Shown: positions 1 through 40,347 of the stretch, one piece after another
Position numbering within the stretch: position 1 is the first letter of the stretch
Layout of the letters: each line of letters starts with the position of its first letter
From: Candidatus Sumerlaeota bacterium
GTDB taxonomy: Bacteria; Sumerlaeota; Sumerlaeia; SLMS01
Assembly (NCBI GenBank): GCA_020848155.1
Contig: JADLAR010000003.1
Coordinates: forward strand, 3,089 to 67,088
DNA: 64,000 nt
Direction: 5' to 3'
Program-made: the position numbers and the translations under genes
Notes under the pieces: generated by a model
Seen by the model: the letters and a program-made list of their open reading frames with translations, nothing else
Told to the model about the DNA's origin: nothing
The model's database searches: none

Positions 1-2352
1 ATCCAGAATCGCCTTGGCTTTCAGCATCTTGGGCAGGTGAGGCAATTGTGCGAAGGCGCCGGAGAGATCCTTAACTCGCCGTGAGGTCTCCCCCTCTCGC
101 CACAAGTCGTATGGCCCATCGGGCAATAAAGCTTCTGCGGATATGGACGAATCTTGAACCCGCGACCGATCATCATTCTTGATGATCATGAAGTGGGCTT
201 CTTCGGTCACATTGATCTTGAAAGCCTGAGCCTCATTCTTCTCGGAAACTGTCACCACCGTGCAGTAAGCCTGTCTAACGGCTTCAGGGATTTTTTTTCT
301 CGCCTTGTCTATATTCATGCCAAGCGTGCTCATACGTGCAACGTCCAGCTGCCCGTCCTTCTGTTGCTGTTTCAGATCCACTTCAACCTGTTCCCAAGCC
401 AGATACTCACGAACCGCTGCCGAGGCGACCTCGACGCCGTCCCTGGATGGTGCGAGCAGGATCAAGGCATTGCGGTAGACACGGGGCTTGTCGGAACTCG
501 TTGTTTCATCGAGGTAGCGCTTCGCCTCCGCGCTCGGCTTTCCGGAATCGCTCGCTGCGTTCGGCCCAAGCACCGCGTAATGAAACAAACCATCGTCTTC
601 GATATCTTTGGGCTTCGTGGGGAGCATATGAACCCGCACACCAAGCGCATTTGCACCTTCGGAAAGCTTCTTCGTTCTCTGGATTTCGTCCAGGAGTCGT
701 ACTTTCACAACATCGTCGTTGATACGCGATGCCGCGACGGCGTGCATCTGCGTCAGGTTCGGACGATTGCCAAGCCGCCAGGTCTCTGGCACTTGATTGC
801 CCTCTCCTGAAGTATATTGATCATCCAGCCAAAAACTCACCTGCGCCCATTGTGAGAGTCCCTTCTCCAACTCGATCTTGTCCGGTCGGCTGGGAGCGAT
901 CAGCACCGTCAGATCGCGCAGCTTCGCACTCTGGCCGATGGGTTGGGAGTGCAGGAAAGTCGCCGCGATAGCTTGTTCGATCTCGCGGAACTTCAGGCCG
1001 ACAGAATCACGCTGTATATCTCGCCCGCGCTGCAGTTCTCCCTCGATGACGCCCGTCCATGCCTGACGTTTTCCCTCATGCTCTTCTGTATCTGCCACCG
1101 TCACCAACTCGCGCATCGCCTCGGAAAGCCCATCCTTGCCTTTTTGCGTTAGAAAAACGCACGGCCCCACCAGCGGGCTCTCGTCCCACTTCGCCGCCTC
1201 CCGCAACGCCAGCGCGAAGGTCCGCAACACGCCACGCGTTCGCTGAAAGCGATCAAGCTGCGTCCATTTCGCATAGAACACTTCGGTCAGGTCGGGATGG
1301 AACGGATAACTCTTGAGGAAGCGCTCCTCCGCATCAGCGCCTTGCTTTCGTGTTTGCTCGTCCAGGTCACAAACACCCTTGAGAGCAGCCTGCACATGCG
1401 AACGGAACGCATCGCGATCTTTGATCGACTCGGGAGTAAAAAACCGCCGGCGCAGAACTTCCGCCACATCTTCCTTCACTACCGGCTCCACAGCCTCTTC
1501 GCGTTGGCGCTGGAAAATATCGTAGAGCGCGCCTTGCAACTCCCGGCCAAAGGAATCGCTCTTTGACGGGTCGCTGGCGAGCAACGAGGCAACGATGCAG
1601 CATCGATCGACTTTCGTGGCAGCCTGCGTCAGGTACTGGAAGAAATTGATCATCCGATCCTTCCACTTCGCATCGGCCGCGACCTTCTCCCGCACGTACA
1701 TCAGCACTTCGTCGATCAGGATCAGAACGCCCAGTCCCTGCTTCTGCGGCATCTCCAGCAACGCCGTCAGAAGGTTCTCCGCTGGCGCCGAATCCCGCTC
1801 CTCCGCTTTGCCATCTGCGTGCAGCAGTTTGAGCCCGTCTTCTCCGGCTATCTGCCATGCGAGAACGCTCCAGGGCTGCTTCAATGTTCTGACGGCCCCG
1901 CTTGGATCGCGGACCTCCATGCCTTTCTCGACATCAAGCTTGTCGAAGCAAAGACCCGCCACGCGCGCTGCCGGCGGTTCCTGTCCGATTGCCTGCTCAA
2001 ACTCGGCCACGGATGGCAGCTTGGGAAGATTCGCCGGATTGGTGACCAAATGCCGGAGCGTAATCAGCGTGTGCGTCTTGCCGCCGCCGTAGGTCAACTC
2101 CAGCTGGCGCACCGCCTTGTCGTTCTTCCCCGCCAGGCGCCGCATCACGTCGCGCACAAGTTGCCGCAGGTTGTAGGTCGGAAAGGTCAGAGCGAAGAAC
2201 TTCTCCGGATCCTCGTAAATCGGCCGCTTCCCCCCCTGCATCAGGACCTCGTACAGATCGGCCGCGAACATGTGCATCGGCAGCTCGCCCGACTTCAGGT
2301 CGTCGCGCAGCCCGACCACTTCGTGCCATGGTTTCCAAGGTGTCTTCGCCAT
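1..2352 (-). CDS. DUF499-family ATPase (BrxC/PglY-like; 'anti-phage-associated DUF499'). Only the N-terminal ~784 aa are in the window; the gene runs off the window start.
   Basis: Uninterrupted minus-strand frame from ATG at 2352 to position 1. It is absent from the ORF track because there is no stop in the window. N-terminus MAKTPWKPWHEVVGLRDDL..FAADLYEV..EDPEKFF..TYNLRQL and Walker A LTYGGGKTHTLITL match the DUF499 hallmark. The start overlaps the SIR2 stop as TAATG. Confidence 0.7.
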   Translation of the reverse strand, partial: MAKTPWKPWHEVVGLRDDLKSGELPMHMFAADLYEVLMQGGKRPIYEDPEKFFALTFPTYNLRQLVRDVMRRLAGKNDKAVRQLELTYGGGKTHTLITLRHLVTNPANLPKLPSVAEFEQAIGQEPPAARVAGLCFDKLDVEKGMEVRDPSGAVRTLKQPWSVLAWQIAGEDGLKLLHADGKAEERDSAPAENLLTALLEMPQKQGLGVLILIDEVLMYVREKVAADAKWKDRMINFFQYLTQAATKVDRCCIVASLLASDPSKSDSFGRELQGALYDIFQRQREEAVEPVVKEDVAEVLRRRFFTPESIKDRDAFRSHVQAALKGVCDLDEQTRKQGADAEERFLKSYPFHPDLTEVFYAKWTQLDRFQRTRGVLRTFALALREAAKWDESPLVGPCVFLTQKGKDGLSEAMRELVTVADTEEHEGKRQAWTGVIEGELQRGRDIQRDSVGLKFREIEQAIAATFLHSQPIGQSAKLRDLTVLIAPSRPDKIELEKGLSQWAQVSFWLDDQYTSGEGNQVPETWRLGNRPNLTQMHAVAASRINDDVVKVRLLDEIQRTKKLSEGANALGVRVHMLPTKPKDIEDDGLFHYAVLGPNAASDSGKPSAEAKRYLDETTSSDKPRVYRNALILLAPSRDGVEVASAAVREYLAWEQVEVDLKQQQKDGQLDVARMSTLGMNIDKARKKIPEAVRQAYCTVVTVSEKNEAQAFKINVTEEAHFMIIKNDDRSRVQDSSISAEALLPDGPYDLWREGETSRRVKDLSGAFAQLPHLPKMLKAKAILD

Positions 2353-3455
2353 TACAGGACCTTTCCAGTTTCTTGCGGGGATTCGATTTCTTCAAATGGA
2401 GATACGTCGCTGGGAAATACTTTAGCGAGCTCGATGATCGTGAGGTGATGCGTCAAAAATTCTTTTGCTCCCAGTGGCATGCATGCGACTCGACTCGAAT
2501 CTGAAAGGCCGAGCACACGGAGGATACGATTCGTCTCCTCCGCTTTCCGCTCTTCATTCACCGGACCAATAACGGCAAGTACCCTCATGGTTGGATTGTT
2601 CTTAAGAGCCTGAGCCATGATCCCGTTAATATGATCGTCATAGAACCCATACCCAATTGCTACAATGAGCCGAGCCGAATCCAAAGTCCATCGGCGGAAT
2701 TGGTACGCCAGGAACAGAAAAGGATCCACGTACTGGAGTTTGTATGTGGTTCCGAATATGATCGAAAGCTGGTCATGGTGGATGTTGTTGTAGCCATCCC
2801 TGTAGGTTACTCTTCCGTCTGTGCCCTTCTCCCAATCAACGGAGCCATGAAGCTTGTACAGGAATATGGCAGGCTCTTCGACAGGCTCGAACATGCGCCA
2901 GTCCCAACATTTGTCGCCATCAAAGCCCCTTCCGATGGCAGAGTGAGCGCAGGCAATTTCCACACACCGATCGTAGTTCAGGGAGAAAACACGTAGCGGA
3001 TGTTCATACTCTTTCGCAAAATCCGTTAGTCGCGCGTAATACTGCGCGTCTTCATTATGGTTAAGTGTCACCCATTCACGAAGCTTCTTGACGATCAACT
3101 CCCGAAACAAATGGACGCGGGCAAGGTTTGGCCCGGCTACCTCTGTGAGCTTAGGCGACCAGGCACCAATGAACGGATAGAGCGGATGGTCGTCGCCCTT
3201 TCGCAGGTCGTCCAAAGTGGATACTAGGCGCTCAATGTTGAAGCCACTGACAAAATGCCCCCGTATTCCATCTGAGTAAATAATCGCACTCTTCACATAG
3301 TTGTAGAGATGAAGAAAGTCCTTCCACTCTTTATCATTCTGGAGCAGGCACTCCAACTTCTGGACCATTGAAACAGAATGTGGAATGCCCGCGTCTACGC
3401 TAGCCCCGGCGCCGAGGAGGATCAGAATCTCGTCTCTCTTGAACACAGTCGCCAT
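2352..3455 (-). CDS. SIR2-family protein (defence-type NADase-like effector), stand-alone, no APAZ
   Basis: Rossmann motif ILLGAGASVDAGIP, FSLNYD and LYKLHGS motifs of defence SIR2 (ThsA/DSR/pAgo-associated type). The track ORF is 2352..3515. The internal ATG at 3455 (MATVFKRDE) is preferred: it is preceded by AGGAG and lies 10 nt after the pAgo stop. Confidence 0.75.
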   Translation of the reverse strand: MATVFKRDEILILLGAGASVDAGIPHSVSMVQKLECLLQNDKEWKDFLHLYNYVKSAIIYSDGIRGHFVSGFNIERLVSTLDDLRKGDDHPLYPFIGAWSPKLTEVAGPNLARVHLFRELIVKKLREWVTLNHNEDAQYYARLTDFAKEYEHPLRVFSLNYDRCVEIACAHSAIGRGFDGDKCWDWRMFEPVEEPAIFLYKLHGSVDWEKGTDGRVTYRDGYNNIHHDQLSIIFGTTYKLQYVDPFLFLAYQFRRWTLDSARLIVAIGYGFYDDHINGIMAQALKNNPTMRVLAVIGPVNEERKAEETNRILRVLGLSDSSRVACMPLGAKEFLTHHLTIIELAKVFPSDVSPFEEIESPQETGKVL

Positions 3456-3465
3456 TTTCGCGCTC

Positions 3466-5424
3466 CTATAGGAACCAGGGGGGCATATTTTCGATCTCAA
3501 TCTCGGACAAACCAAGCTGATCGAAATGGCCTATGTACCTGGAAATAAGCTGGGCATAGTAGACGGAAACTGGTGCAGACTTCGCATTGAAGCCACGCCA
3601 ATTAGCTCCGGACAAGTTTACGGCGTCTTGCAAAAAACCGACCTCATCATCCTTCTCCAAACCGCTATTGGAATAGGTGAATTCAACATGCATCGGTCGC
3701 GCGATACGGCGAGTGACTTTGGGGTTATGATACTGGAGTCCTTCGAACCAGACCAAGTACTCGCCGCGCCCCAAGCGAACGAACGTGCTCTCAAAGGGCG
3801 TTTTGCTATTGTTCCAAAGGGCAAACCCTAGGTACTTATCCGTGTCATTAAACTTCATCGCAACCAGTCGTTTTCCGTTGGCAGAGCCTTCAGAAAACTT
3901 AGCTAGAGCACGATGGACTTGATCTAGCTCGTCTCGGCGCAATGCGAATGGGGTATGGATGACGAAGGTGCGGTAGGCTTCCTCGTGCTCATGGAGCACC
4001 CCTAGAACCCCATCAAGCAATGTTTTTAGATACTCGCCTCTATTCTCACTATGTGCGACGACCCTGATCGTTTCATAGAGACCACTTGAGTCCGTAAGCA
4101 CGGAATAGGCGAAATATTTCGAAATCTTCCCCTCCCCATCCTTTCGATGCGCCTGACCTAGACCTACAATTAGGCAGGACTCATTCCTCGGTTCCACTTT
4201 CCAAGGCTTACCTCCAAGTTTTCCGAATGCAGCCAGAGCAATGTTCGCAACCGACCACTTGAAGGTATTGGCGTTCTTCAGCTTCTCGACGCTCACCAAC
4301 TGCGTCGGTAAGCGATTCTTCAGGTAGGTATGCTTGAGTCTGAAATAGGCTTTCTGGCCTTCGGGATCTTCGCTTTCACGGCTCCATGGAAAGAGAACTA
4401 TCGGCAAAACGGTCTCGCTTCCCGCCTCCTCCTTCAGCCTGCCCAGATCGTGCTGGAGAGCCTGAATAGAGAAGCCGGAGACGGCGAGACCTTTAACGTT
4501 TTCTTTTTCCAGCTTCAGACCAAACATCCGTTCCATTCCCGGGAAGGTATGGTATTTCTCGCCTCTCAGCGCGAAATAGAGATCGTGTGCCAGCGGCTTG
4601 TCCTCCGGCCGGTACAGGAAGCAGATGCTAGAAGCTCCCTCGGGGGCTTGGAAAGGTCCAGAAGTTTTCAGTCCCTGAAACTGAGAGGTTGACCGCTTCC
4701 CATTCCCGAGGACGTATGTCTTGGATTCGAGATGCCTCGAAGAAAGGCCCTCCGAGGGCCATTGTACGTCAAGGCTGAGGAATTCACTAACTTCGAGAGG
4801 AAAAAGTTTGGGCTTGTATATACGTAGAAATGACTCGCATTTAAGAAGATGGTCAGCATAGAAGTCGGTATTCTCCCTCCCCTCCCTGTTCAGACTCAGG
4901 CTTCGTTTGAGGGTCTCGCGAGAAACAACATCCATCTTGTTTCGGAAATGGAACCCCATCAAGAAACCGAACTGCTGCTTGGAGCTAAGGTAGAAGGGTT
5001 CAAGCCAGACCTGATCAACCCCCAATTCATCGTCTCGCATCACGAAGTCAATTGTGCGTCGAAAGCACTTGGGATCGGTCCGATACTCATCGGCATTCAG
5101 GACCGCTTGAACTCGCTTGAGCAGGAGGTTGAATAAGAACTGGATAGTAAGCTGAATCTTTGTCCGTGGCGCAGCATCGAAGGGCTCGAATCCCTTCATT
5201 GGGTCGAAGGAGATATCGAAGTCAACTCTTCCAGCCTCCTCTTCGCCGAGCCCGACAGGTAAGGAGTATCTCCTCAATCCCTCTCTCCGCATAGCATCAA
5301 GGGCGCTTCCCGGCTCGCTTCGCCGACGATACACCCGGACAGCGAATTCCTGCGGATCGCACGCGAGGAAATTCAGCGTGATTGGTTTATCCCGGTTCGC
5401 GTTTGTGGGCGGTTCGCTGATCAT
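3466..5424 (-). CDS. Prokaryotic Argonaute, long-B-like (MID-PIWI core with ~250-aa N-terminal region), catalytically inactive
   Basis: MID 5'-phosphate pocket pattern Y-x3-K..Q (AYFRLKHTYLKNRLPTQ). PIWI G-x-D-V slot reads LIVGLGQAHRK, so the Asp is absent. C-terminal PVSVYYAQLISRYIGHF is the PIWI tail signature. The track ORF starts at 5481 inside the upstream gene. The ATG at 5424 (MISEPP) with GAAGGG 9 nt upstream is preferred; 5433 is also possible. Confidence 0.7.
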   Translation of the reverse strand: MISEPPTNANRDKPITLNFLACDPQEFAVRVYRRRSEPGSALDAMRREGLRRYSLPVGLGEEEAGRVDFDISFDPMKGFEPFDAAPRTKIQLTIQFLFNLLLKRVQAVLNADEYRTDPKCFRRTIDFVMRDDELGVDQVWLEPFYLSSKQQFGFLMGFHFRNKMDVVSRETLKRSLSLNREGRENTDFYADHLLKCESFLRIYKPKLFPLEVSEFLSLDVQWPSEGLSSRHLESKTYVLGNGKRSTSQFQGLKTSGPFQAPEGASSICFLYRPEDKPLAHDLYFALRGEKYHTFPGMERMFGLKLEKENVKGLAVSGFSIQALQHDLGRLKEEAGSETVLPIVLFPWSRESEDPEGQKAYFRLKHTYLKNRLPTQLVSVEKLKNANTFKWSVANIALAAFGKLGGKPWKVEPRNESCLIVGLGQAHRKDGEGKISKYFAYSVLTDSSGLYETIRVVAHSENRGEYLKTLLDGVLGVLHEHEEAYRTFVIHTPFALRRDELDQVHRALAKFSEGSANGKRLVAMKFNDTDKYLGFALWNNSKTPFESTFVRLGRGEYLVWFEGLQYHNPKVTRRIARPMHVEFTYSNSGLEKDDEVGFLQDAVNLSGANWRGFNAKSAPVSVYYAQLISRYIGHFDQLGLSEIEIENMPPWFL

Positions 5425-5440
5425 CGTCCGCATCCCTTCA

Positions 5441-8400
5441 TTACTCGTCTCCCTTCTCTTCCTTCGGCAAAAAACTCGCATCCTGCACTGTCGCGCCCTT
5501 GGCGCGCACGTGGTTGCTGAGGCTTTCCAGGAGCGCGCGTTCCTCGCTGCCGGCGTCGGCCAACTCGATCAGCGACTGCACCAGCCGAATGAATAGCTCC
5601 TGGCGGCGGAGGCCGTGTTCGTCCAGGTATTCGTCCACCTTATGCACGTCCCCGGCACGCCATAAATGCATCAATCGGTGTATGCGGTCAATCAGGGGGA
5701 TCGGGCGGCCGCTGGGAGCCTCGTAACCCATCGAGGAACGCTTGCGCTGGGCCCAGGTCTTCAGCTTGAGCTTCCCGCCCGAATCCCCGCTATCGTCGGG
5801 ATCCGCCTCGGCATCCGGATCGGCGTCGTCCTCATCGTCATCATCCGCGGCGGCCTTGCTTCCCGTGTGCGAGACCAGGTCCCAAGCCGAGTCAAGGTCG
5901 CGATCTGACAAACCGCACGCTGTGGCATAGAGAATACACGCGCCGGCAGGAGCCTCTGCCAATCCGAAGTCGTGACGATGCAGAAGGTAATAGGCCGTCG
6001 GGGAATCCATGCGATCCGCCGCCGCCAGGTCTGATCCTTCGCCCTCGCCCGTCAGCACTTGGCCCACCACGAAGTCCACCACCATGCGCCGCACGAGGGA
6101 GAGAAACTCGCCCACACCGAGAACTTCGTTCGGCGTGTTCGCCTTTTTCACAATGGGGTGCTTGCTGTACGCTTCCAGCGCAGGACCCGTCGCCGACCAG
6201 ACAAAGTCCGGCCCGCGAATACCTGCATCCCAGAACTCGCGCAACCGATCACCGATCTTTGCCCGCATCTCTTCCAGTACCTTGTTGTCCCAGCCGGGAC
6301 GAGCAGTCGCAGGGCGTTTCTTGCAGACGAGCCAGACGGAGGAAGAGAGAGCGGCGGAGTTCATCCCTCGCATGCGATTCCCCATCTCCGTCTGAATAGG
6401 CCAACTTCCATCAACAATAAACCCCGCGCGGATGATCGCCGAAACCAGCGTCTCCCAAGCATTGGGGTGCTTGTGTGCGAAAACGATGACAAGGCGCCCA
6501 TCGGTCGTGAGAGACTTTTCGCAAGCTATGAAGGCCCTCGCCATGCCGTCTTCATAGGATTGCTTGGACGCCTTGGAATCGCCGCCATGACGACTGTCAT
6601 CGTCAATTAGTTCGCCGTCATTCGCATCATGATCCCATTTGGGAGAGGTCTCGCCCAATAGGAAGGCACCGTTCTCCAGCGGGGTCCTGCTGACGAATCG
6701 CTTGATCCAGACATAGAAAAAGTCCATGAGGTCAGAGTATGGGATCGCATCGTAATAGGGCGGGTCGGTGACAATACAGTCATACTGATGGTCGCTCATT
6801 TTGATAGCACTGTGATTTAGCGCTTTGGGAGTGGGTGAGGCTATCGAAGCTTGCATAATGTGCTCCCATGCTTCGCACAACCACTCAAGGTTTGAAAGGT
6901 AGTTTCCGGTAGTTTGGGAGATGGGATTTCCTTCACAGTAGTCCCAAATGATTGGTAGGGCAAACCTCGTAAATGTTCCTTGAAGGTTATCCCGCGTATT
7001 ATCCCATCGGCAAATTGAAGATTGCCTATCAGCGATTCGGTCCATTCCCACTGCAAGACCAGCATAGATTGCTTCTGTCCATGTGTGATCATAGCCTCTG
7101 GAAGTCAGTTCGCCCAGCGACGTCCTGCTGGATCGCAAGACCATTCCCAGCGTCTGTAACTGCCTATCTGTGAAAACATCGCGCCACTTCATCAAACCAT
7201 ACCCTTGGATTGAAAACGCCCGCGCAGCACCTCTACCTCCACCAGCCGGGGTCGGTTCCTCTGGACGACCGAACGGAATACTTGAGTAGACGTGATCTAT
7301 TGTCTTCTTGGCTCTGAGAGCGCACTTGACTTCGTGTTCAGTGGCTACCCGATACCCTTTACCAGAAGGACCTTCGACCACAACGGCTGTGGCAACCGCA
7401 GATAAATGGCCGCTTTTGCCCTCTACGCGAATATCTTCCATCGTCATAATGGTCTGGCAGCACGGGCACTGCACGCCTGCACGGGACATCGTTCCAGCCG
7501 ATATACGTTTATCATGCTCTCGTTTCTGCGCAGCGTTGCCTCCCTGCGCAGGGACGTTGTCCTGGATGCCGAACTCGACGCCGGTGCCATCGGCTTTGGG
7601 CTTCATGATCAGCAGGACGCGCTTGTTGTCCTTCTTGCAGAGCCAGCGCGTCTTGAGCAGCGGCACCTCGGCGCGGCAATTCTTGCACTTGACCGTCCGC
7701 GCCCACAAATAGGCCACCGTCGGTTTCGCCACCCATCGCGGGTTGCGTTTGGACTTCAGATATTCTGCTGTGAACTCGCCGTTGAGGGCCTCGATATCCG
7801 GTGTGCCATTCTCCTTCAGAGGGACCAGCCGCATCTCCTGCCGCTCGTAGGGCGATTTGTCTTTGAGATCAAGCCGCTCGAAATCCGCATAGGTGGGGTA
7901 ATAAGGGGCCAGTTCCTTGCGGGCCTCGTTGAGCACCCACCGCCCCCAGGCGCGCACATGCCAGGCGAGGTCCGCCCGGGGCGCGCGGCCTGCGTCTATA
8001 CGTTCCTTCTCAAAGAGATCGCCGGTGGCCTCCTCCTCCTGCTTTTTCGTGCGCTTAGTGCGACCGACCAGATGCGGGTGCGCCTTGTAGAAAGACTCCA
8101 TAAACTCCTCGTCCTCCAGAATGAAGTCGGGGAGCGGGTGCGTCTTGCCGGCGAGTTTCTGAGGATACTCCAGCGTGCATTTGAGGATGAACCAGGCGAC
8201 CGGGTTGATGTCCACCGCGGTGGCTTCGCAGCCAAGGCGCATGGCCTCCAGCGGAATCGCCCCACCGCCGGCAAAGGGATCAAGCACGCGCGGGGCGCGT
8301 CCGCCGTAGGCCTTGCGAATCTCCTCGCGAAAGAAGGCCAACTCCTTCTCGCGCTGGGCGACGGCGGCCTGGTGCTCCGCGATCTTCTTTTTCCCGCCAG

Positions 8401-9823
8401 ACTTCGGCTCCGTGCCGATCCAGCCCAGGATGCCGCCCTCGACCTCTTCCTTCACGCGCTCGACGATGCGCCCGTTGGGCATCTTCTTGCGCTCGACTGA
8501 CTGAACGACCTTCCCGCCAATGCGCTCGCAGAGTTCCTTGCGCGCCTCCGGCGTCCCCGGATCCGGCAGCAGCGTGGCGAGCAACGCCGCCCGACAAGCC
8601 GCCAACGGCCGCCGCGCCGGCCAGATGTGAAGAGTCGATATATGCCCATGGCGCACATTCTTCTCATGCACGGATGTAAGCGATGCCTGCTTGAGAGGGA
8701 AGGCACGTTCGATCAGGCGGGGGGTGTCGGGGGCTTGCTTTGTCAATTCTCGGGGCTCCGATTCTACTGATCGTTTGTTTGTTCGCTCTTCCGGTTTTTT
8801 CTCAATCTGCGACACTTCTTGGTGTTTTTGTTCAATGCCTTCTGGCTCTCTAATGGGACGCAAGGGTACTCCCAATGCTTCCCAGTTCAATTCCATCGTC
8901 TCCTTGTTCAGGCCGATGGGCTCTGCACCCGCACTTCTCAGAGCAGAGAATATCCCATTGGAAAGTTCTGAAAATCGTAGAAAGTGTACATCTCGTCTCG
9001 GGATCTCAAACAAATCTCCAGCGAATCTATCCAAAATCTTATCGTCCCGGCAAACAACGAGGCTTCGTATCCTTTCTCCCATCGTGTCGTTGATATGGGA
9101 TTTCAATCTTGGAGCGAAGCTCCTGGCATCTGACTTCTCAAGACGAACTCCGAAGCTTTCTAGCTGCCGCAGGAGACCCGATGTCGCTGAGGCTAGTTTT
9201 CTTGAAGGTGTTGTATAGACAAGATCGATTTGAGAAGGGATTTCGCTCCCGAGCCGTTTTAGAAGCGAATGGAGGGTATCGTGTTCTTTGTTTCCATCTA
9301 TACGGTAAACGAAGAGCGTCAATGCCCACGCTTTCTCATTCTGGCTGCGATCGAATTCATGCACACCGACAGAATGAGGTGGAAAAACAAGAACTGTGGT
9401 CTCCAGATCTCCGAGCCATTCTTCGATAAGTTTGCTTACCACATTCCAATCAAGCCCGCCGTTGCCGCAACCGAGAGCTGGAACTGTGATGGACTTGATA
9501 TTCTCATTAAGAAGAAAGCTTCTTAGCCAGCGAAGTCCCTTCAGTATATACGAATAAGTTGAGGGGCGTTTCCAGTCTGTTTTTGTCGGCAGATTGACGA
9601 TGATCGGTGTATCGGATAGCAGGTCATCGGACTTCCAGACGTGGGCTCGACCCGGCCGCACCTCGTCAGCCTTGCAGGCTTCAGCATAGCTCTTGTACAT
9701 CTCCGGGTATCGCTTCTTGAACAACAAGGCGATTCCCTTCCCCATGACGCCAACACAGTTCACGGTGTTCACGCGGGCCTGAGCCTCATGCTCGAACATG
9801 TCGCCGGTGACGTACTTGATCAT
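5441..9823 (-). CDS. DarG-like macro domain protein fused to DUF1156 N6-adenine DNA methyltransferase (1460 aa)
   Basis: N-terminus has VNTVNCVGVMGKGIALLFKKRYPEMY and PALGCGNGGLDW, a DarG/TARG1-type macro domain, plus ~200 aa more. From ~aa 365, TPRLIERAFPLKQ..RHGHISTLHIWPARRP is the DUF1156 N-terminal hallmark. MTase motif I DPFAGGGAIPLEA and motif IV TDPPYYDAIPY are present. Confidence 0.8.
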   Translation of the reverse strand: MIKYVTGDMFEHEAQARVNTVNCVGVMGKGIALLFKKRYPEMYKSYAEACKADEVRPGRAHVWKSDDLLSDTPIIVNLPTKTDWKRPSTYSYILKGLRWLRSFLLNENIKSITVPALGCGNGGLDWNVVSKLIEEWLGDLETTVLVFPPHSVGVHEFDRSQNEKAWALTLFVYRIDGNKEHDTLHSLLKRLGSEIPSQIDLVYTTPSRKLASATSGLLRQLESFGVRLEKSDARSFAPRLKSHINDTMGERIRSLVVCRDDKILDRFAGDLFEIPRRDVHFLRFSELSNGIFSALRSAGAEPIGLNKETMELNWEALGVPLRPIREPEGIEQKHQEVSQIEKKPEERTNKRSVESEPRELTKQAPDTPRLIERAFPLKQASLTSVHEKNVRHGHISTLHIWPARRPLAACRAALLATLLPDPGTPEARKELCERIGGKVVQSVERKKMPNGRIVERVKEEVEGGILGWIGTEPKSGGKKKIAEHQAAVAQREKELAFFREEIRKAYGGRAPRVLDPFAGGGAIPLEAMRLGCEATAVDINPVAWFILKCTLEYPQKLAGKTHPLPDFILEDEEFMESFYKAHPHLVGRTKRTKKQEEEATGDLFEKERIDAGRAPRADLAWHVRAWGRWVLNEARKELAPYYPTYADFERLDLKDKSPYERQEMRLVPLKENGTPDIEALNGEFTAEYLKSKRNPRWVAKPTVAYLWARTVKCKNCRAEVPLLKTRWLCKKDNKRVLLIMKPKADGTGVEFGIQDNVPAQGGNAAQKREHDKRISAGTMSRAGVQCPCCQTIMTMEDIRVEGKSGHLSAVATAVVVEGPSGKGYRVATEHEVKCALRAKKTIDHVYSSIPFGRPEEPTPAGGGRGAARAFSIQGYGLMKWRDVFTDRQLQTLGMVLRSSRTSLGELTSRGYDHTWTEAIYAGLAVGMDRIADRQSSICRWDNTRDNLQGTFTRFALPIIWDYCEGNPISQTTGNYLSNLEWLCEAWEHIMQASIASPTPKALNHSAIKMSDHQYDCIVTDPPYYDAIPYSDLMDFFYVWIKRFVSRTPLENGAFLLGETSPKWDHDANDGELIDDDSRHGGDSKASKQSYEDGMARAFIACEKSLTTDGRLVIVFAHKHPNAWETLVSAIIRAGFIVDGSWPIQTEMGNRMRGMNSAALSSSVWLVCKKRPATARPGWDNKVLEEMRAKIGDRLREFWDAGIRGPDFVWSATGPALEAYSKHPIVKKANTPNEVLGVGEFLSLVRRMVVDFVVGQVLTGEGEGSDLAAADRMDSPTAYYLLHRHDFGLAEAPAGACILYATACGLSDRDLDSAWDLVSHTGSKAAADDDDEDDADPDAEADPDDSGDSGGKLKLKTWAQRKRSSMGYEAPSGRPIPLIDRIHRLMHLWRAGDVHKVDEYLDEHGLRRQELFIRLVQSLIELADAGSEERALLESLSNHVRAKGATVQDASFLPKEEKGDE
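8640..8736 (-). repeat. Direct repeat copy 1 (fusion junction inside the macro-DUF1156 gene)
   Basis: See copy 2. The junction sits where QAPD-TPRLIERAFP in the fusion corresponds to M-TD-TPRLIERAFP in the relic. Confidence 0.6.
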
Positions 9824-9826
9824 CGT

Positions 9827-11140
9827 CTATACTCCATCATGGCCACGCGCGAGCTGGAGGATACTCTCGATTCTAGCGTGATCGTACCATAGTGGATTGA
9901 CTGCAAGGATATCGGCTTCGGAGAGAGCTGCCAGCATTTGGAGAGTGTTCTCGTTTCGGGCAATAGGTGCGAGTTCTTGGACACGTCGACCACCTCCGCA
10001 AAGATCTCCAATCAGATCATGATAGCAAACCAAGGTCAGAACTGCGACAGCCTCGTCCCGGGTTATATCGGGTAGGTTGTTTAGCAACTCAACGCAGCTG
10101 GGAAGGGCCTGTATCGGATGATCCGTGTCTTTCTTGTATTTCCCATCCTTCCTATTTCTACCGTTCGGAATCCCTTTGCCTACGTCGTGAAGGTACGCCG
10201 CAAGTTTGGTGAGTTTCTTTTCTCTTGCTGATAGAGCCACGTAGCGAGGGCGCTTCTTGAGCTGTTCAACTACCTGAAGCGTGTGTTGACCTACATCTCC
10301 ATGAATTTCATCCTGTAGCCCACATAAGGCCCCTGTAAGTGGATGGTTAGCTAGATCAGCCTTCAATTGCTTTAGCAAGTCGTCCAACGGAGATAGTGTG
10401 CAGCCTGTTCCCTTGCTGGCAGCTATTTGGCGAACCGCCTTGGTTAGTTCCAACTGTATTGCCTTAGGACCACTTACTATAGATCGCTTTGCCCCTTCGG
10501 AGGCGTAAAATGGTGTTATGAAATGGTGTGAATCATACTCTGTTTTTATGTTGATGTTCTGAGCCGCGAGATACCGTTGCACCTGGTCCGCGATCGCTTT
10601 GTTCCAGACTACTATGCTATCAATGGTTGCAAGAGGTACGGAGCCGTGAATGAGGAACTCTGCCATCCTTTTATGCCTTTGAACCTCATTCTTTAGCGAC
10701 CACTTTTGAAGCTCTATGCATTCCCAGTCCAAATTCGCCAGCGAATGTGGGGAATTGTAGAAGGTAGGGGGTATATTCGTATTTGCCGAGGCATCCGAGA
10801 AAACATAGGGATAACTAATCGCATCGCGCAGTTTGACGCGCAGGAAAATAAGGAGCTGCTGATCTGCCACCCTCCTAAACACCACTCCTGTAAACATGTC
10901 TGTGAGCTTCGCAAAATAAAAGGGAACGTAATTATGCACCACTCCACCTGGGCCACAAGTCACCCTCGTATTGGCCCTCCTCGCCTGAATTCCTTCGTAC
11001 GCTACGTCGTAATGGATGAGCCCACGGCTGAGCTTTTGTTGTGTTGAGAGCAAACCGCCTTGGGACAGGATCGATGGCAGATTATCCAAATGAGTAAAGT
11101 GGTACACCATTCTGTCTTGGTGTATAGCAGGCAGTGTCAT
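9827..11140 (-). CDS. darT: DarT (DUF4433) ssDNA thymidine ADP-ribosyltransferase fused to C-terminal HD phosphohydrolase domain
   Basis: MVYHFTHLDNLPSILSQGGLLS, VVHNYVPFYF and RMAEFLIHGSVPLATIDSIVVWN match the DarT catalytic core. The C-terminal half has H..(30)..YLHDVGKG..DHP..CYHDLIGD, an HD motif set. The stop lies 3 nt before the macro-MTase start. Confidence 0.72.
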   Translation of the reverse strand: MTLPAIHQDRMVYHFTHLDNLPSILSQGGLLSTQQKLSRGLIHYDVAYEGIQARRANTRVTCGPGGVVHNYVPFYFAKLTDMFTGVVFRRVADQQLLIFLRVKLRDAISYPYVFSDASANTNIPPTFYNSPHSLANLDWECIELQKWSLKNEVQRHKRMAEFLIHGSVPLATIDSIVVWNKAIADQVQRYLAAQNINIKTEYDSHHFITPFYASEGAKRSIVSGPKAIQLELTKAVRQIAASKGTGCTLSPLDDLLKQLKADLANHPLTGALCGLQDEIHGDVGQHTLQVVEQLKKRPRYVALSAREKKLTKLAAYLHDVGKGIPNGRNRKDGKYKKDTDHPIQALPSCVELLNNLPDITRDEAVAVLTLVCYHDLIGDLCGGGRRVQELAPIARNENTLQMLAALSEADILAVNPLWYDHARIESILQLARGHDGV

Positions 11141-11973
11141 GATGGCATCCTTTCCTGGAGCTTGCGTAGCAGCAAGTCCCCGACAATTCCCATTACCTGT
11201 GTAGCGTGCCTCGCTTCTTCCGAGGTTACACTAGGAAGCCACGGATGGCCATGCCCGGTCCCTTGCTTATTGCGCAAGGTGTTGATCGCGCATGCCGCCT
11301 CATAGAGCGCGCGTTGCAATCGCTGTTGAGGTGTGCCGGAGGTTGCCGGATTGTCGGCCGATGTCTTCAGATCCAGCGCTGCGAAGGCTTGACCAAGGAG
11401 CGTGGGGAAGTTGTGGGGCGGATTGTTGTTATTCCATACTTCCACAAGGACATGCGCCGCGATTGCCTCAAGGAGATCCTTACCTGTGCCAACCACCAAT
11501 GCGGCATCCTCAGACCCCCTCTGGGCTCTTCGCACGTAGGCGCCTAGTGCCTCAGTCAACTCCGTTCCGACGAGACTATCCAAAACGGCGGGCTGAATAT
11601 GACCATCTGGAGACAGGATGAATCCTTCTGCAGAAAGGACGTCGCGGAACGCCTGAATCTCTTCGCTTCCCACATAGTGCGCAGATTCCGGGCGGAACCC
11701 ACCGCATGACCGAACCATCGCGATCAGACGATCGACAAAGTCGCGGCCCCCTTCGAAGGAGTTCTCAATTGCCCACGAAAGGATAAGCCGAACGCGCTTC
11801 GCTTTGCCGACGGTCTGACCGCTCTGCTTCGGATCGCCGCGCTCAAGCCCTGAGGAGGTGACGCAGAACTCAATGTCCGAATGGCTTGGATCACGTCGCT
11901 CCTTTTGTGCGTCGTCAACTAATCGAGCCAATGCGTAAATGATAGCATCAGTCAGAGGTGGCTTGGTCCTCAT
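11137..11973 (-). CDS. Abi_C / HEPN-like abortive-infection-type protein (278 aa)
   Basis: C-terminal LRNKQGTGHGHPW is an R-N-x6-H motif of the HEPN/Abi_C type. ATGA overlaps at both ends. Confidence 0.5.
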   Translation of the reverse strand: MRTKPPLTDAIIYALARLVDDAQKERRDPSHSDIEFCVTSSGLERGDPKQSGQTVGKAKRVRLILSWAIENSFEGGRDFVDRLIAMVRSCGGFRPESAHYVGSEEIQAFRDVLSAEGFILSPDGHIQPAVLDSLVGTELTEALGAYVRRAQRGSEDAALVVGTGKDLLEAIAAHVLVEVWNNNNPPHNFPTLLGQAFAALDLKTSADNPATSGTPQQRLQRALYEAACAINTLRNKQGTGHGHPWLPSVTSEEARHATQVMGIVGDLLLRKLQERMPS

Positions 11974-12284
11974 GCTGCTCCTCCTAACTGAGCCATGACT
12001 TCATCGACAGACATGGACCTGCCATTTTGGAGCGTTCGGCCACCCTGCCATTCTCGACCTCGGGCTCGTTGGTTCGCGTCCCACTCTGAGTATTTCTGAA
12101 CAGTCGGACCAGAAACATGATAGAGACATCCTGCAACAATTTCGCCGGAGAAGCTGCCTCGCCGCGCGAGCCAGATATGCAGCGTCGAAATATGCCCATA
12201 CCGCACATTCCTCTCGTGCGCGGGGGTCAGTGATACCTGCTTGAGAGGAAAGGCGCGTTCGATAAGGCGGGGGGTGTCGGTCAT
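11970..12284 (-). pseudogene. Relic 5' end of a DUF1156 methyltransferase gene. First ~32 codons are conserved, the rest is unrelated. It may still be translated as a 104-aa peptide.
   Basis: MTDTPRLIERAFPLKQVSLTPAHERNVRYGHISTLHIW matches aa ~363-400 of the 1460-aa fusion protein. About 100 nt (12183..12280) is ~85% identical to 8640..8736. Confidence 0.6.
12183..12280 (-). repeat. Direct repeat copy 2 (ancestral DUF1156 start region)
   Basis: Aligned by eye to 8640..8736, ~85% identity over ~100 nt. Confidence 0.6.
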
Positions 12285-12292
12285 GAGCTATA

Positions 12293-13738
12293 TTACCTTT
12301 TCACAATTCGTTGGTATTCGGAGTCTGTACCTAGACGTCCCATCGCATTCGGTGGAAAGGAAATTATCTTATCCAAGCCCCGATTAATTTCTGTATTAAC
12401 TGCTTGGGTTTTTATGCGTGTAGCCAGCGCGGCGTATTCTTGACCGCACGAAGTGCTTTGCAATCGACTCAAAAATTCTCGGTCGTATGGCAATCGAGTG
12501 AAGATCCGAATGTGACGATCTTGCCACTTCGAGATCAATTCATCGTAAAAGGGGACGGCTGCATTTGACACCCCATATCCGTTTCCAATTCTGCAAAGCG
12601 TTAAAACCTTCACGTACTTTGCTTCGACGCTGTGGGGGACGGCGCCATTGGCTGGAATTAGGCGAGACAATGCTCTTGCTGGAGCAACTTCGCGAGAGAA
12701 GTTACTCCAGCCTTGGTGGGCCGAATAAAGGGAATCCACAGCGGTACCGATTTCGACGGCGAGGGTCTCTGCTGGCAGAAAGCTAAGGCCGTCAACAAGG
12801 TCCAGAAACTCCCGAATCAGTTTTGCGCGTGCCACATCTCCGTTAGCGGCGAGGGTCGCTTGCTTCAGCCCTGCTTCATACTTGGCATCATCTGGTGCTG
12901 CCCCCCAAAGCCCAGCTGCAATCAACTTTATGTTATTCCGTACGTGTGCATCCAAACTCGGGTCTCCGTACATTCCGGCGATCGCCCTCGACAACGAAAT
13001 CAGCAATTCATCCGGAAGGAGCTTTATCGCTTCAATTATCGCTGGAGTATCACTTGAACTGAAGGTGTTTTCTCGGATGTTCTTCAACAACCGCCGGACC
13101 TCAAGTGCGGGACCGACCGGGTCTTTCGCCAACACCTCCTTTACGCAGGTCTCCAGCCAACTCACCAATTGAAGTCCAGAGAGATCGTTTTGATTAGGGT
13201 GGGCCGCGCTCGCATGGTTTCGCATGGAGCGAATATAGTCCAGATGGCGGTAACCAATGTCCGTGATGATACCTGCTTCCATGGACCCTTTGATCAGCTC
13301 CCAGTCCTCGATCTTCGCCAAATCCTCAGGAGTTCGTAGTTTCGACCTTCGCGCTGGATCTGTGACAACCGTGCTGAAGAAGTAGTCGAGATCAAACCGC
13401 GTGACCTTGTCGCGTATACTCCGAACCGTTTCATCCCACAAATAGTTCAGAGCAGCATCGAAGAGACCGATGCCACATGCAGCGACGAACTTAGACAGAT
13501 ACATGGCACTCTGCTTCTGTTCGTCGTTCAGAAGAGCAACGACGTCAGGAAGGTTGTTGATCACCTTGCGGCGTTCCGATTGTTCCACGAGAACTGCTTC
13601 TGAGGGCACACCTAGATAATCCAGGTAAGTGGTAAGCCCCGAAGCAAACTGTGCCAAGGATTCAGAGACTGCATCTGGATTCGAAGGGATTATATCAGCC
13701 ATCGCTTGTTGTCGCTCCGTGAGAGGATATTCATGCAA
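12293..13738 (-). CDS. Hypothetical protein (481 aa) with HEPN-like R-x6-H motif
   Basis: DYIRSMRNHASAAHPN resembles the motif in the 278-aa Abi_C-like ORF. No other domain recognised. Tight coupling to neighbours. Confidence 0.4.
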   Translation of the reverse strand: MHEYPLTERQQAMADIIPSNPDAVSESLAQFASGLTTYLDYLGVPSEAVLVEQSERRKVINNLPDVVALLNDEQKQSAMYLSKFVAACGIGLFDAALNYLWDETVRSIRDKVTRFDLDYFFSTVVTDPARRSKLRTPEDLAKIEDWELIKGSMEAGIITDIGYRHLDYIRSMRNHASAAHPNQNDLSGLQLVSWLETCVKEVLAKDPVGPALEVRRLLKNIRENTFSSSDTPAIIEAIKLLPDELLISLSRAIAGMYGDPSLDAHVRNNIKLIAAGLWGAAPDDAKYEAGLKQATLAANGDVARAKLIREFLDLVDGLSFLPAETLAVEIGTAVDSLYSAHQGWSNFSREVAPARALSRLIPANGAVPHSVEAKYVKVLTLCRIGNGYGVSNAAVPFYDELISKWQDRHIRIFTRLPYDREFLSRLQSTSCGQEYAALATRIKTQAVNTEINRGLDKIISFPPNAMGRLGTDSEYQRIVKR

Positions 13739-14996: not shown

Positions 14997-14997
14997 A

Positions 14998-18606: not shown

Positions 18607-18647
18607 AGCCAGTGCGTTGCTCCCGGCGTTTCAGTCTTGCGAGAGTG

Positions 18648-23174: not shown

Positions 23175-23175
23175 C

Positions 23176-40320: not shown

Positions 40321-40347
40321 GCGAGAAGCTGCCAAGGCTGAGGTGAA

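What the first reader, a model, noticed from the sequence alone, without database searches (positions are those of the whole stretch)
2352..5481. Catalytically dead long-B-like pAgo followed by a stand-alone SIR2, wedged between the methyltransferase and the DUF499 ATPase
The pAgo has an intact MID 5'-phosphate pocket pattern but LGQAH in place of the catalytic G-x-D-V-x-H. It is ~650 aa, so not a ~450-aa short pAgo.

The downstream SIR2 is only ~368 aa and so carries no APAZ. Classical SPARSA-type systems have SIR2-APAZ upstream of a short pAgo.

The arrangement resembles recently reported long-B pAgo + SIR2 effector pairs (recalled from literature, not verified). Here the pair sits inside another system's operon, coupled on both sides (stop-start gaps of 7-16 nt upstream and a 1-nt TAATG overlap downstream). 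This raises the question of whether pAgo-guided target recognition feeds the DUF499/DUF1156 machinery or vice versa.
Basis: partly seen in the sequence, partly recalled or inferred. Interest (0 to 1): 0.75.

Follow-up and report, generated by a model that had tools for sequence, protein, structure and literature searches.

The report
Argonaute–SIR2 defence pair inside Hma operon
The two genes are an ordinary member of a known abortive-infection system (BPAS: a nuclease-dead Argonaute that switches on an NAD+-destroying SIR2 enzyme), sitting as one of many interchangeable cargo modules in a known cargo slot of another defence operon (Hma).

Summary
On the minus strand, a 652-aa pAgo (5424..3466) is followed after 10 nt by a 367-aa SIR2 (3455..2352). 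They lie between a DUF1156 methyltransferase and a DUF499 ATPase, with tight junctions.

The pair is a BPAS system (long-B pAgo + Sir2_2 effector, Song et al. 2023). Both proteins align over the available length with the characterised GbAgo/GbbAgaS. PADLOC already holds full-length profiles for exactly this pair. The AlphaFold model best matches RsAgo. The MID 5'-phosphate pocket and the SIR2 N/H active site are conserved, no catalytic acidic residues remain, and PAZ is reduced to a ~30-aa remnant.

The surrounding operon is an Hma system (HmaA/B/C), which is known to carry embedded defence genes (Payne et al. 2024).
- All 80 genomic relatives of the pAgo have the SIR2 immediately downstream; only 2 of them are inside Hma.
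- None of 80 close HmaC relatives carries BPAS.
- In those relatives the hmaB-hmaC junction is either empty or holds unrelated cargo (PD-(D/E)XK, Schlafen-like, ABC ATPase, GmrSD).

I therefore read BPAS here as autonomous cargo, not an input to Hma. The one new detail is a well-supported BPAS lineage stably co-inherited with Hma across several phyla. Interest is low to moderate.

The parts
3466..5424 (-). pAgo of the BPAS pair: long-B type, catalytically inactive, PAZ reduced to a remnant (652 aa; alternative start at 5433)
   Evidence: Pfam Piwi 2e-11 and PADLOC pAgo_II 4.8e-194. AF2 model pLDDT 88.7; best Foldseek match is RsAgo at 7.9e-29, TMq 0.70. PDB profile hits are AfAgo, EcAgo and RsAgo. 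32% identity to GbAgo, E 1e-59. Y360/K364/Q375/K402 are conserved in 87 of 87 sequences, and no acidic residue sits at the catalytic positions.
2352..3455 (-). SIR2 (Sir2_2, bAgaS-type) NADase effector of the BPAS pair, 367 aa
   Evidence: Pfam SIR2_2 1.3e-10 and PADLOC Aga_SIR2 8.3e-121. 38% identity over the full length to GbbAgaS, E 2e-67, with N160 equivalent to the essential N155. G15-A-G-x-S19, N160-Y-D and H203-G-S are conserved in at least 95% of 83 homologues.
1..2352 (-). hmaC (DUF499 AAA+ ATPase), first 784 codons; the gene runs off the window start. Host-system gene downstream of the cargo
   Evidence: PADLOC HmaC 1.7e-78; Pfam DUF499 3.3e-18. TAATG stop/start overlap with SIR2.
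5441..9823 (-). hmaB (DUF1156 DNA methyltransferase) with a DarG-like Macro domain fused to its N-terminus (1460 aa). Host-system gene upstream of the cargo
   Evidence: PADLOC HmaB 6.6e-116 (aa 369-1253) and DarG 2.6e-64 (aa 1-163); Pfam Macro and DUF1156.
14998..18606 (-). hmaA (HTH + SNF2 helicase + NOV_C/DUF3883), first gene of the Hma operon
   Evidence: PADLOC HmaA 2.1e-153; Pfam HTH_3, SNF2-rel_dom, Helicase_C, NOV_C.
9827..14996 (-). Other cargo embedded between hmaA and hmaB: unk421, unk481, a 104-aa duplicate of the hmaB 5' end, Abi_C protein and DarT-HD fusion
   Evidence: Pfam/PADLOC DarT 2.6e-42 / 2.4e-47, HD, Abi_C 8.4e-12, DUF1156 fragment 2.6e-07; nothing for unk421 and unk481. 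The duplicate is 34/40 identical to HmaB aa 366-405.

Best explanation
The pAgo and SIR2 genes form a complete BPAS abortive-infection module (long-B prokaryotic Argonaute + Sir2_2 effector). This module has been inserted as self-sufficient cargo into the variable hmaB-hmaC junction of an Hma (helicase-methylase-ATPase) defence operon, and it is co-transcribed with that operon.

Proposed mechanism:
1. The nuclease-dead pAgo binds a 5'-phosphorylated small guide in its intact Y-K-Q-K MID pocket. The guide is most likely RNA, by analogy with characterised inactive pAgos.
2. The pAgo holds the SIR2 partner in an inactive complex.
3. Pairing of the guide with invader DNA releases or activates the SIR2 NADase.
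4. NAD+ is depleted and the infected cell stops growing or dies.

Hma acts in parallel as a separate methylation-linked defence layer. The linkage gives co-expression and co-transfer, not a shared biochemical pathway.

Shown here: gene anatomy, family membership, conservation of the guide pocket and the NADase site, loss of catalytic residues, strict pAgo-SIR2 synteny, and the cargo-slot nature of the junction.

Inferred from homology to GbBPAS: complex formation, guide type, NAD+ depletion and abortive infection.
For: Identity as BPAS:
- PADLOC full-length profiles pAgo_II (4.8e-194) and Aga_SIR2 (8.3e-121).
- BLASTP to the characterised GbbAgaS: 38% identity, 2e-67. To GbAgo: 32% identity, 1e-59, collinear.
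- Gene order is pAgo upstream of Sir2, as described for BPAS.
- In 80 of 80 genomic relatives the SIR2 follows the pAgo on the same strand, within a few to about 30 nt in nearly all (one gap is about 170 nt).
- The pAgo and SIR2 trees are congruent.

Long-B, inactive pAgo:
- Best structural match is RsAgo; best sequence matches in the PDB are AfAgo, EcAgo (BPAN) and RsAgo.
- The catalytic positions are G/S, T/L/A and Q/K/R across 87 homologues, while the MID residues Y360, K364, Q375, K402 and the C-terminal PWFL are invariant.

Active SIR2: the GAGxS loop, N160 (= GbbAgaS N155, essential for toxicity and NAD+ loss in PMC10620215) and H203 are conserved.

Cargo rather than an integrated part:
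- The host genes hit HmaA/B/C at 1e-78 to 1e-153.
- 62.7% of 1,485 Hma systems carry embedded genes, many of them independent defence systems.
- Only 2 of 80 BPAS loci in species-representative genomes are inside Hma.
- 0 of 80 metagenomic loci with HmaC 53-85% identical carry pAgo or SIR2.
- In 57 of those loci the junction is resolvable. In 22 it is closed (gap up to 215 nt), including the two closest relatives: L091 (85% HmaC identity) with a 27-nt gap and L088 (82%) with a 3-nt gap. In 35 it holds 0.45-3.9 kb of other cargo: YhcG PD-(D/E)XK, SLFN_AlbA_2+HATPase_c_4, AAA_21 ABC ATPase, AAA_14/DUF4143, GmrSD.
- The same operon in the window carries further unrelated cargo between hmaA and hmaB (DarT-HD, Abi_C, two unknown proteins).
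- GbBPAS works on its own in E. coli.
Against: - The Hma-embedded BPAS copies are not scattered. Six of them (window, L001, L081, L084, L085, L086) form a clade with 100% (pAgo) and 96% (SIR2) NJ bootstrap support, always in the same slot. Their divergence tracks that of the Hma proteins. The composite has therefore been kept together through long divergence and across at least Sumerlaeota and Hydrogenedentota, plus a Kiritimatiellae locus (L007) whose placement is unresolved. This would also be expected if the two systems cooperate.
- Junctions are tight (1-nt overlap, 7-16 nt gap) and no internal promoter or terminator signal was found, so expression is coupled.
- No experiment exists for this locus. 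For BPAS itself, guide chemistry and the activation mechanism are known only from one in vivo study of one homologue at 32-38% identity.
Confidence: 0.8

Rival explanations
1. Functionally integrated composite. In this lineage BPAS and Hma have become one system. For example, Hma (methylation-dependent self/non-self discrimination plus helicase/ATPase) could supply substrates or licensing for pAgo guide loading. Alternatively, BPAS could act as an obligatory abortive-infection back-up that fires when Hma is inhibited.
For: - The Hma-embedded BPAS clade is monophyletic and always in the same slot.
- Divergence of pAgo/SIR2 is congruent with that of HmaA/B/C, including the outlier L007.
- There is translational-coupling-like geometry at both junctions and no internal transcription signals.
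- The composite occurs in several phyla, so it moves as a unit.
Against: - BPAS is outside Hma in 78 of 80 genomic loci and is active alone in E. coli.
- Hma relatives just as close (82-85% HmaC identity) have no cargo or unrelated cargo at the junction.
- Hma proteins in BPAS-carrying loci are full length with no missing or extra domains tied to BPAS.
- Co-inheritance is equally explained by physical linkage inside an operon.
Confidence: 0.12
2. SPARSA-like short-pAgo system, or an active (long-A-like) nuclease pAgo with a cryptic catalytic tetrad, with the SIR2 merely adjacent.
For: A SIR2 next to a pAgo is also the hallmark of SPARSA. A PADLOC class I SIR2-APAZ profile gives a marginal hit (6.6e-4) to 27 N-terminal residues.
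Against: - The pAgo has N-L1-L2 in the same chain and matches RsAgo over its full length.
- The SIR2 is 367 aa with no APAZ, and it lies downstream rather than upstream.
- No acidic residue is conserved at any of the three mapped catalytic positions in 87 homologues.
- The closest PDB sequences are all long-B.
Confidence: 0.02
3. Decaying passenger. The pair is an inactive remnant carried along in the operon.
For: GC content (0.50-0.52) is lower than in the flanking hma genes (0.58-0.59). A neighbouring hmaB 5' duplication shows the operon has been rearranged.
Against: - Both ORFs are intact and full length relative to family profiles.
- All functional motifs are retained.
- All six clade members keep intact genes.
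- The GC offset is a general property of BPAS genes in both embedded and free-standing loci.
Confidence: 0.04

Closest known systems
GbBPAS (GbAgo HAG96803 + GbbAgaS HAG96802), the long-B pAgo-Sir2 system of Song et al. 2023 (PMC10620215)
   Same: - Same two-gene architecture and order, with the pAgo upstream.
- Same protein families: 32% (pAgo) and 38% (SIR2) identity, collinear over the available length.
- Same essential Asn (N155/N160) and the same inactive PIWI.
   Different: - It is encoded inside an Hma operon rather than as a simple 2-3-gene operon.
- It comes from Ca. Sumerlaeota and is only about one-third identical, so trigger and guide preferences may differ.
- Nothing has been tested for this copy.
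RsAgo / EcAgo (BPAN) / AfAgo: structurally characterised long-B pAgos
   Same: - Best structural match is RsAgo (E 7.9e-29, TMq 0.70); best sequence matches are AfAgo 3e-27 and EcAgo 5e-22.
- Inactive PIWI, Y-K-Q-K MID pocket and the C-terminal PWFL/NPWFL carboxylate motif seen in AfAgo.
   Different: - PAZ is reduced to a ~30-aa linker with one short helix (model residues 163-187; 29-37 aa in all 87 homologues). This fits the 'PAZ remnant or absent' class of single-chain long-B pAgos described in PMC10954474, not the PAZ* of RsAgo.
- The effector is a Sir2 rather than a nuclease (BPAN), and AfAgo is a split protein.
Hma systems with embedded defence genes (Payne et al. 2021, PMC8565338; Payne et al. 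2024, 10.1101/2024.01.29.577857)
   Same: - HmaA/HmaB/HmaC on one strand with foreign defence genes nested between them.
- The junction holds alternative cargo in relatives, including the ABC-ATPase and GmrSD-like families highlighted in that work.
   Different: - pAgo/SIR2 cargo is not mentioned in the text or held supplements of that paper.
- No paper in the library combines DUF1156 with Argonaute.
SPARSA (short pAgo + SIR2-APAZ)
   Same: It works alike in outline: an inactive pAgo senses invader nucleic acid and unleashes a SIR2 NADase. N-L1-L2 plus MID-PIWI together equal a PAZ-less long pAgo.
   Different: - Here N-L1-L2 is fused to MID-PIWI instead of to the SIR2.
- The SIR2 is of the Sir2_2/ThsA-like type, only distantly related to the SPARSA Sir2 (PMC10620215).
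- The gene order is reversed.

Membership tests
BPAS (long-B pAgo + Sir2) | pAgo belongs to the long-B clade (single chain with an N-terminal lobe plus MID-PIWI; nearest relatives are long-B) | tested here: met
   Foldseek top hits are RsAgo over the full length. The PDB profile search gives AfAgo, EcAgo and RsAgo as best hits. The protein is collinear with GbAgo. No maximum-likelihood PIWI tree with long-A and short outgroups was built.
BPAS (long-B pAgo + Sir2) | Catalytically inactive PIWI (no DEDX tetrad) | tested here: met
   By motif register and model strands, the catalytic positions are G423/Q424, T491 and Q625. Across 87 homologues these columns are G/S, Q/S, T/L/A/S and Q/K/R, with no conserved Asp or Glu. 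The glutamate-finger position was not mapped.
BPAS (long-B pAgo + Sir2) | Sir2_2-domain protein (og_44 / bAgaS) encoded immediately downstream of the pAgo in the same operon | tested here: met
   10-nt spacer. Pfam SIR2_2 and PADLOC Aga_SIR2. 38% identity to GbbAgaS. The arrangement is conserved in 80 of 80 loci.
BPAS (long-B pAgo + Sir2) | Intact NAD-binding and catalytic residues of the Sir2 (the Asn equivalent to GbbAgaS N155 / ThsA N112, and the catalytic His) | tested here: met
   N160 aligns with N155. GAGxS, N160-Y-D and H203 are at least 95% conserved in 83 sequences.
BPAS (long-B pAgo + Sir2) | pAgo and Sir2 co-evolve | tested here: met
   NJ trees of the two proteins show the same major groupings. 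The Hma-embedded clade has 100% and 96% bootstrap support in the two trees.
BPAS (long-B pAgo + Sir2) | pAgo-Sir2 complex, invader-triggered NAD+ depletion and cell death | not testable with these tools
   Known only for GbBPAS (PMC10620215). It requires expression, pull-down and NAD+ assays.
Hma defence system | HmaA (SNF2 helicase), HmaB (DUF1156 methylase) and HmaC (DUF499 ATPase) on one strand | tested here: met
   PADLOC HmaA 2.1e-153, HmaB 6.6e-116, HmaC 1.7e-78, all on the minus strand. HmaC is cut by the window edge. There is also an extra 104-aa hmaB 5' duplicate.
Hma defence system | Embedded genes are dispensable cargo rather than core components | tested here: met
   0 of 80 close HmaC loci carry BPAS. 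Of the 57 with a resolvable junction, 22 have a closed junction and 35 carry other cargo.
SPARSA (short pAgo + SIR2-APAZ) | Short pAgo (MID-PIWI only), with SIR2 fused to APAZ and encoded upstream | tested here: not met
   The pAgo is 652 aa with N-L1-L2. The SIR2 is 367 aa and downstream. The class I SIR2-PNTD profile matches only 27 residues at 6.6e-4.
Long-A (active) pAgo | DEDX catalytic tetrad and canonical PAZ | tested here: not met
   No acidic residues at the mapped catalytic positions. Only 29-37 residues lie between L1 and L2.
Thoeris ThsA | SIR2 fused to a SLOG sensor domain, with a ThsB TIR partner | tested here: not met
   Only SIR2_2 is detected in the 367-aa protein, and there is no TIR gene in the operon. 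The SIR2 fold type is said to be ThsA-like (PMC10620215).

The most novel reading that the evidence does not exclude
In one lineage, BPAS and Hma may have become a single two-layer system. This lineage comprises the window, Hydrogenedentota L001, four metagenomic loci and possibly Kiritimatiellae L007. The Argonaute-SIR2 module, fixed in the hmaB-hmaC slot and co-diverging with HmaA/B/C, would depend on Hma or be regulated by it. Possible links are guide generation from Hma-processed DNA, or firing when Hma is blocked by a phage anti-defence protein. That would be the first case of a pAgo wired into a methylation-based defence system.
Probability: 0.1. Interest if true: 0.6.

Novelty: new member of a known kind. 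Interest (0 to 1): 0.3.

Why it matters
As it stands, this is a divergent, uncharacterised BPAS copy from a poorly sampled phylum, plus a clean natural example of defence genes nested in an Hma operon. It supports two existing ideas. First, inactive long-B pAgos are sensors for toxic effectors. Second, Hma junctions are hot spots where alternative defence cargo is exchanged.

The practical value is modest:
- The hmaB-hmaC slot could be mined for further cargo.
- The stably co-inherited Hma::BPAS lineage offers a defined pair of systems for testing whether embedding brings synergy or only co-expression and co-transfer.

Tried and rejected
- Foldseek against afdb50, intended to link the model to the published EbAgo AlphaFold entry, was unavailable.
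- A Biopython bootstrap timed out. I replaced it with a numpy Kimura-distance NJ bootstrap. These are distance trees only; no ML tree was possible.
- L007's position relative to the embedded clade stays unresolved (13% support). I cannot say whether there were one or two insertions, or later excisions.
- Residue-level superposition on RsAgo to delimit PAZ was not possible. The PAZ statement rests on the model's secondary structure, on segment length across the family, and on the ~100-residue offset in the RsAgo sequence alignment.
- The GbAgo sequence in the held supplement is cut at 393 aa, so only the N-terminal 60% could be compared.
- The supplements of the Hma-embedding preprint contain no mention of argonaute, pAgo, SIR2, Piwi or DarT. 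Its Figure 1 could not be inspected.
- The promoter and terminator scans gave nothing above shuffles.
- The GC offset of the cargo looked at first like evidence of recent acquisition. It is a general feature of BPAS genes everywhere, so I rejected it as evidence.
- The search for Macro-HmaB fusions found three shorter Macro+DUF1156 proteins but no full-length equivalent. I did not pursue this.
Full report
**1. What is in the sequence**

Everything from 18606 down to position 1 is one minus-strand gene array. In order it contains:
- an HTH-SNF2 helicase with a NOV_C domain (18606..14998);
- two proteins with no family hit (14996..13731 and 13738..12293);
- a 104-aa ORF (12284..11970);
- an Abi_C protein (11973..11137);
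- a DarT-HD fusion (11140..9827);
- a 1460-aa Macro + DUF1156 methyltransferase (9823..5441);
- the pAgo;
- the SIR2;
- a DUF499 ATPase that starts at 2352 and runs off the window.

The pAgo ORF as listed (5481..3466) overlaps the methyltransferase stop at 5443..5441. The realistic starts are ATG 5433 (7 nt after the stop) or ATG 5424 (16 nt after it, with GAAGGGA at a normal Shine-Dalgarno distance). ATG 5424 gives 652 aa and is the start used for NCBI protein IT570_00655 of a Candidatus Sumerlaeota MAG, which is 100% identical.

The SIR2 ATG (3455) lies 10 nt after the pAgo stop, with AGGAG overlapping that stop. The SIR2 stop and the DUF499 start overlap in TAATG. A consensus scan found no promoter-like or terminator-like signals above the shuffled expectation anywhere in 1-19500.

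**2. What the two proteins are**

*Family hits.* The pAgo matches Pfam Piwi (2e-11). It also matches, end to end, a 617-position PADLOC profile called pAgo_II (4.8e-194). The SIR2 matches Pfam SIR2_2 (1.3e-10) and, end to end, the PADLOC profile Aga_SIR2 'class II' (8.3e-121). A 2023 defence-system database therefore already holds paired models for exactly this two-gene unit.

*Structure.* A search of 5.8 billion proteins found at least 278 homologues, almost all 630-650 aa. An AlphaFold2 model built on 43 of them is confident (pLDDT 88.7, pTM 0.86). Its best PDB matches are the Rhodobacter sphaeroides Argonaute structures, the archetypal long-B pAgo, over the full length (E 7.9e-29, TMq 0.70-0.72). 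The MID-PIWI-only AfAgo follows (TMq 0.52-0.55). A profile search of PDB sequences gives AfAgo (3e-27), EcAgo of the BPAN system (5e-22) and RsAgo (2e-13) as the best hits, all long-B.

*Guide pocket and catalytic site.* In the AfAgo alignment, the 5'-phosphate pocket residues align with Y360, K364, Q375 and K402, and the C-terminal PWFL aligns with AfAgo's NPWFL. These four residues are invariant in 87 family members. The catalytic positions, mapped by motif register and model strands (inference from the known GxDVxH / RDG / YAHLV motifs), carry no conserved acidic residue in any column:
- G423/Q424 (GLGQAH);
- T491 (VIHTPF);
- Q625 (YYAQLI).

*PAZ.* Between the L1 strands (ending near residue 162) and the first L2 helix (188-207), the model has about 25 residues with one short helix. 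The equivalent segment is 29-37 residues in all 87 homologues. PAZ is therefore reduced to a remnant. Manakova et al. describe this state for single-chain long-B pAgos. One of their illustrated single-chain examples is from Epilithonimonas bovis, the organism of my locus L050, whose pAgo is 35% identical to this one. I did not verify that the accession is the same.

*SIR2.* It is 38% identical over its whole length to GbbAgaS (E 2e-67). N160 aligns with the N155 whose mutation abolishes toxicity and NAD+ depletion. The G15-A-G-x-S19 loop, N160-Y-D and H203-G-S are at least 95% conserved in 83 homologues. There is no APAZ: the protein is 367 aa, and the class I SIR2-PNTD profile touches only 27 residues at 6.6e-4.

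*Comparison with GbAgo.* The first 393 residues of GbAgo, all that the held supplement gives, align collinearly with residues 15-416 of the window pAgo (32% identity, 1e-59).

*Conclusion.* The pair is a member of the BPAS family (long-B pAgo + Sir2_2) defined by Song et al. 2023. In that family the pAgo lies upstream of the effector, the two proteins co-evolve and form a complex, and a CloDF13-origin plasmid triggers SIR2-dependent NAD+ depletion and cell death.

**3. How tightly the two genes belong together**

A scan of one genome per species returned 188 relatives, and I examined the best 80. In 80 of 80 a SIR2 homologue follows the pAgo on the same strand, within a few to about 30 nt in nearly all (one gap is about 170 nt). 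NJ trees of the two proteins show the same groupings. The pAgo-SIR2 coupling is therefore as strong as comparative genomics can show.

**4. What the surrounding operon is**

The flanking genes hit the PADLOC models HmaA (2.1e-153), HmaB (6.6e-116) and HmaC (1.7e-78). Hma is the helicase-methylase-ATPase candidate defence system of Payne et al. 2021. Payne et al. 2024 reported that 62.7% of 1,485 Hma systems have extra genes embedded between the hma genes. About a fifth of those genes belong to known defence systems, and several newly tested ones are active on their own. The window is thus an Hma operon with cargo in both gaps.

**5. Is BPAS wired into Hma or just carried by it?**

Three tests bear on this.

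(a) Only 2 of the 80 genomic BPAS loci are flanked by HmaB and HmaC: L001 (Hydrogenedentota) and L007 (Kiritimatiellae). The other 78 are elsewhere, including on a Methylomicrobium plasmid.

(b) A metagenome scan with HmaC returned 80 loci at 53-85% identity, and none contains pAgo or SIR2. In 57 of these loci the junction is resolvable, and it falls into two states:
- closed (gap up to 215 nt) in 22 loci, including the two closest relatives: L091 (85% HmaC identity) with a 27-nt gap and L088 (82%) with a 3-nt gap;
- occupied by 0.45-3.9 kb of other DNA in 35 loci.

(c) Sampling that other DNA gave unrelated cargo: YhcG/DUF1016 PD-(D/E)XK nucleases, SLFN_AlbA_2+HATPase_c_4 proteins, an AAA_21 ABC ATPase with a small partner, AAA_14/DUF4143 ATPases and a GmrSD_N protein. 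These are the kinds of cargo Payne et al. describe.

The hmaB-hmaC junction is therefore a variable cargo slot, and BPAS is one of its alternative occupants. Hma relatives as close as those that carry BPAS do without it. Together with the autonomous activity of GbBPAS in E. coli, this makes independent, co-expressed cargo the best reading.

**6. What argues the other way**

The closest relatives of the window pAgo (55-61% identity; P0003, P0004, P0007, P0009) all sit in the same DUF1156-pAgo-SIR2-DUF499 arrangement. In contrast, the hmaA-hmaB gap differs among them: UvrD + peptidase M78, DUF4062 + Schlafen-like, or unknown proteins.

These copies, the window and L001 form a clade with 100% (pAgo) and 96% (SIR2) bootstrap support. 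L007 is unresolved at 13%. Pairwise identities are congruent across all five proteins, with L007 the outlier for each. The Hma proteins are more conserved (HmaC 81-93%) than pAgo (55-81%).

So one insertion, or possibly two, has been stably co-inherited with Hma across phyla. Physical linkage explains this without any functional link, but it leaves room for cooperation. I give that reading about 10-12%.

The lower GC of pAgo and SIR2 (0.50-0.52, against 0.58-0.59 for hmaB and hmaC) is not informative. The same offset appears in every embedded locus and in most free-standing BPAS loci.

**7. Mechanism, with shown and inferred steps**

Shown by sequence and structure:
- an intact 5'-phosphate guide pocket;
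- a dead nuclease site;
- a PAZ-less long-B architecture;
- an intact SIR2 NADase site;
- obligate pAgo-SIR2 synteny;
- co-transcription geometry with Hma.

Inferred from GbBPAS and other inactive pAgos:
- the pAgo binds and restrains the SIR2;
- small 5'-P guides, probably RNA, direct recognition of invader DNA;
- that recognition activates the NADase, NAD+ falls, and the infected cell is sacrificed.

Hma presumably acts in parallel as a methylation-linked barrier. Its own mechanism is not established in the papers I read.

**8. Novelty and verdict**

The pair is a new, divergent member of a known system, and embedding in Hma is a known phenomenon. Two things are not in the literature I could search. 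One is BPAS as Hma cargo: there is no mention in the Payne 2024 text or held supplements, and no paper combines DUF1156 with Argonaute. The other is the existence of a stable Hma::BPAS lineage. I score interest at 0.3 and class the finding as a 'new member of a known kind'.

Noticed in passing
window 5441-12284 (-): The 104-aa ORF 12284..11970 is an 85%-identical (34/40) copy of HmaB residues 366-405, so the 5' end of hmaB is duplicated. Between the two copies lie an Abi_C gene, a DarT-HD gene and a DarG-like Macro domain fused in frame to the N-terminus of HmaB (1460 aa). This looks like a DarTG-type toxin-antitoxin cassette recombined into hmaB, with the antitoxin domain now part of the methyltransferase.
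   Followed up: partly
window 9827-11140 (-): The DarT ADP-ribosyltransferase (NCBIfam toxin_DarT 2.3e-44, just above its cutoff) carries a C-terminal HD/HDIG phosphohydrolase domain, giving 437 aa instead of the ~200 aa of canonical DarT.
   Followed up: no
P0122, P0136, P0164: Three proteins of 478-623 aa from other sources also combine Macro (PF01661) with the DUF1156 N-terminal motif (PF06634). Two of them also have a DprA/SLOG-like domain, so Macro-DUF1156 fusions recur. Most other top hits are ~380-aa Macro or Macro+DprA-like proteins.
   Followed up: partly
window 12293-14996 (-): Two embedded proteins of 421 and 481 aa between hmaA and the hmaB fragment have no Pfam, PADLOC or NCBIfam hit. 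The 481-aa protein has a 26%-identical relative 3.7 kb upstream of a free-standing BPAS in L006 (uncultured Desulfobacterium). By the guilt-by-embedding logic they are candidate defence genes.
   Followed up: no
L087-L166, hmaB-hmaC junction: Among close Hma relatives, the junction that holds BPAS here is either closed or holds YhcG PD-(D/E)XK, Schlafen-like+HATPase_c_4, AAA_21 ABC ATPase + partner, AAA_14/DUF4143, GmrSD-like or larger unknown inserts (up to 3.9 kb in L135 and L147). It is a rich cargo hot spot.
   Followed up: partly
window 20490-24474 (+): Just beyond the Hma operon lie an IS integrase fragment (rve_3/rve, 176 aa), a RecQ-family/DpdF-like helicase whose C-terminus looks like a phosphoribosyltransferase ([10 protein letters not shown] motif), and a DprA/SLOG-like protein with an HTH. 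This may be another defence or DNA-processing pair.
   Followed up: no
L084 5280-8921; L019 9346-9828: In L084 the HmaB of an Hma::BPAS locus carries an extra GIY-YIG nuclease domain. In L019 (Pyrinomonadaceae) a DarG-like Macro gene lies divergently, directly upstream of a free-standing BPAS.
   Followed up: no
window 1-18606 and loci L001, L007, L081-L086: BPAS genes are consistently 5-10 GC points below their flanking hma genes in every embedded locus, and below their flanks in 7 of 8 free-standing loci checked. The offset tracks host GC rather than marking recent transfer.
   Followed up: yes
window 35922-43665: A Ser/Thr kinase with a cNMP-binding domain (35922-37286, minus strand), a sigma-70 region 4 protein, and a 1105-aa adenylate/guanylate cyclase-AAA_16/NACHT-TPR (STAND-like) protein (40348-43665) lie nearby. 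Their relation to defence is unknown.
   Followed up: no
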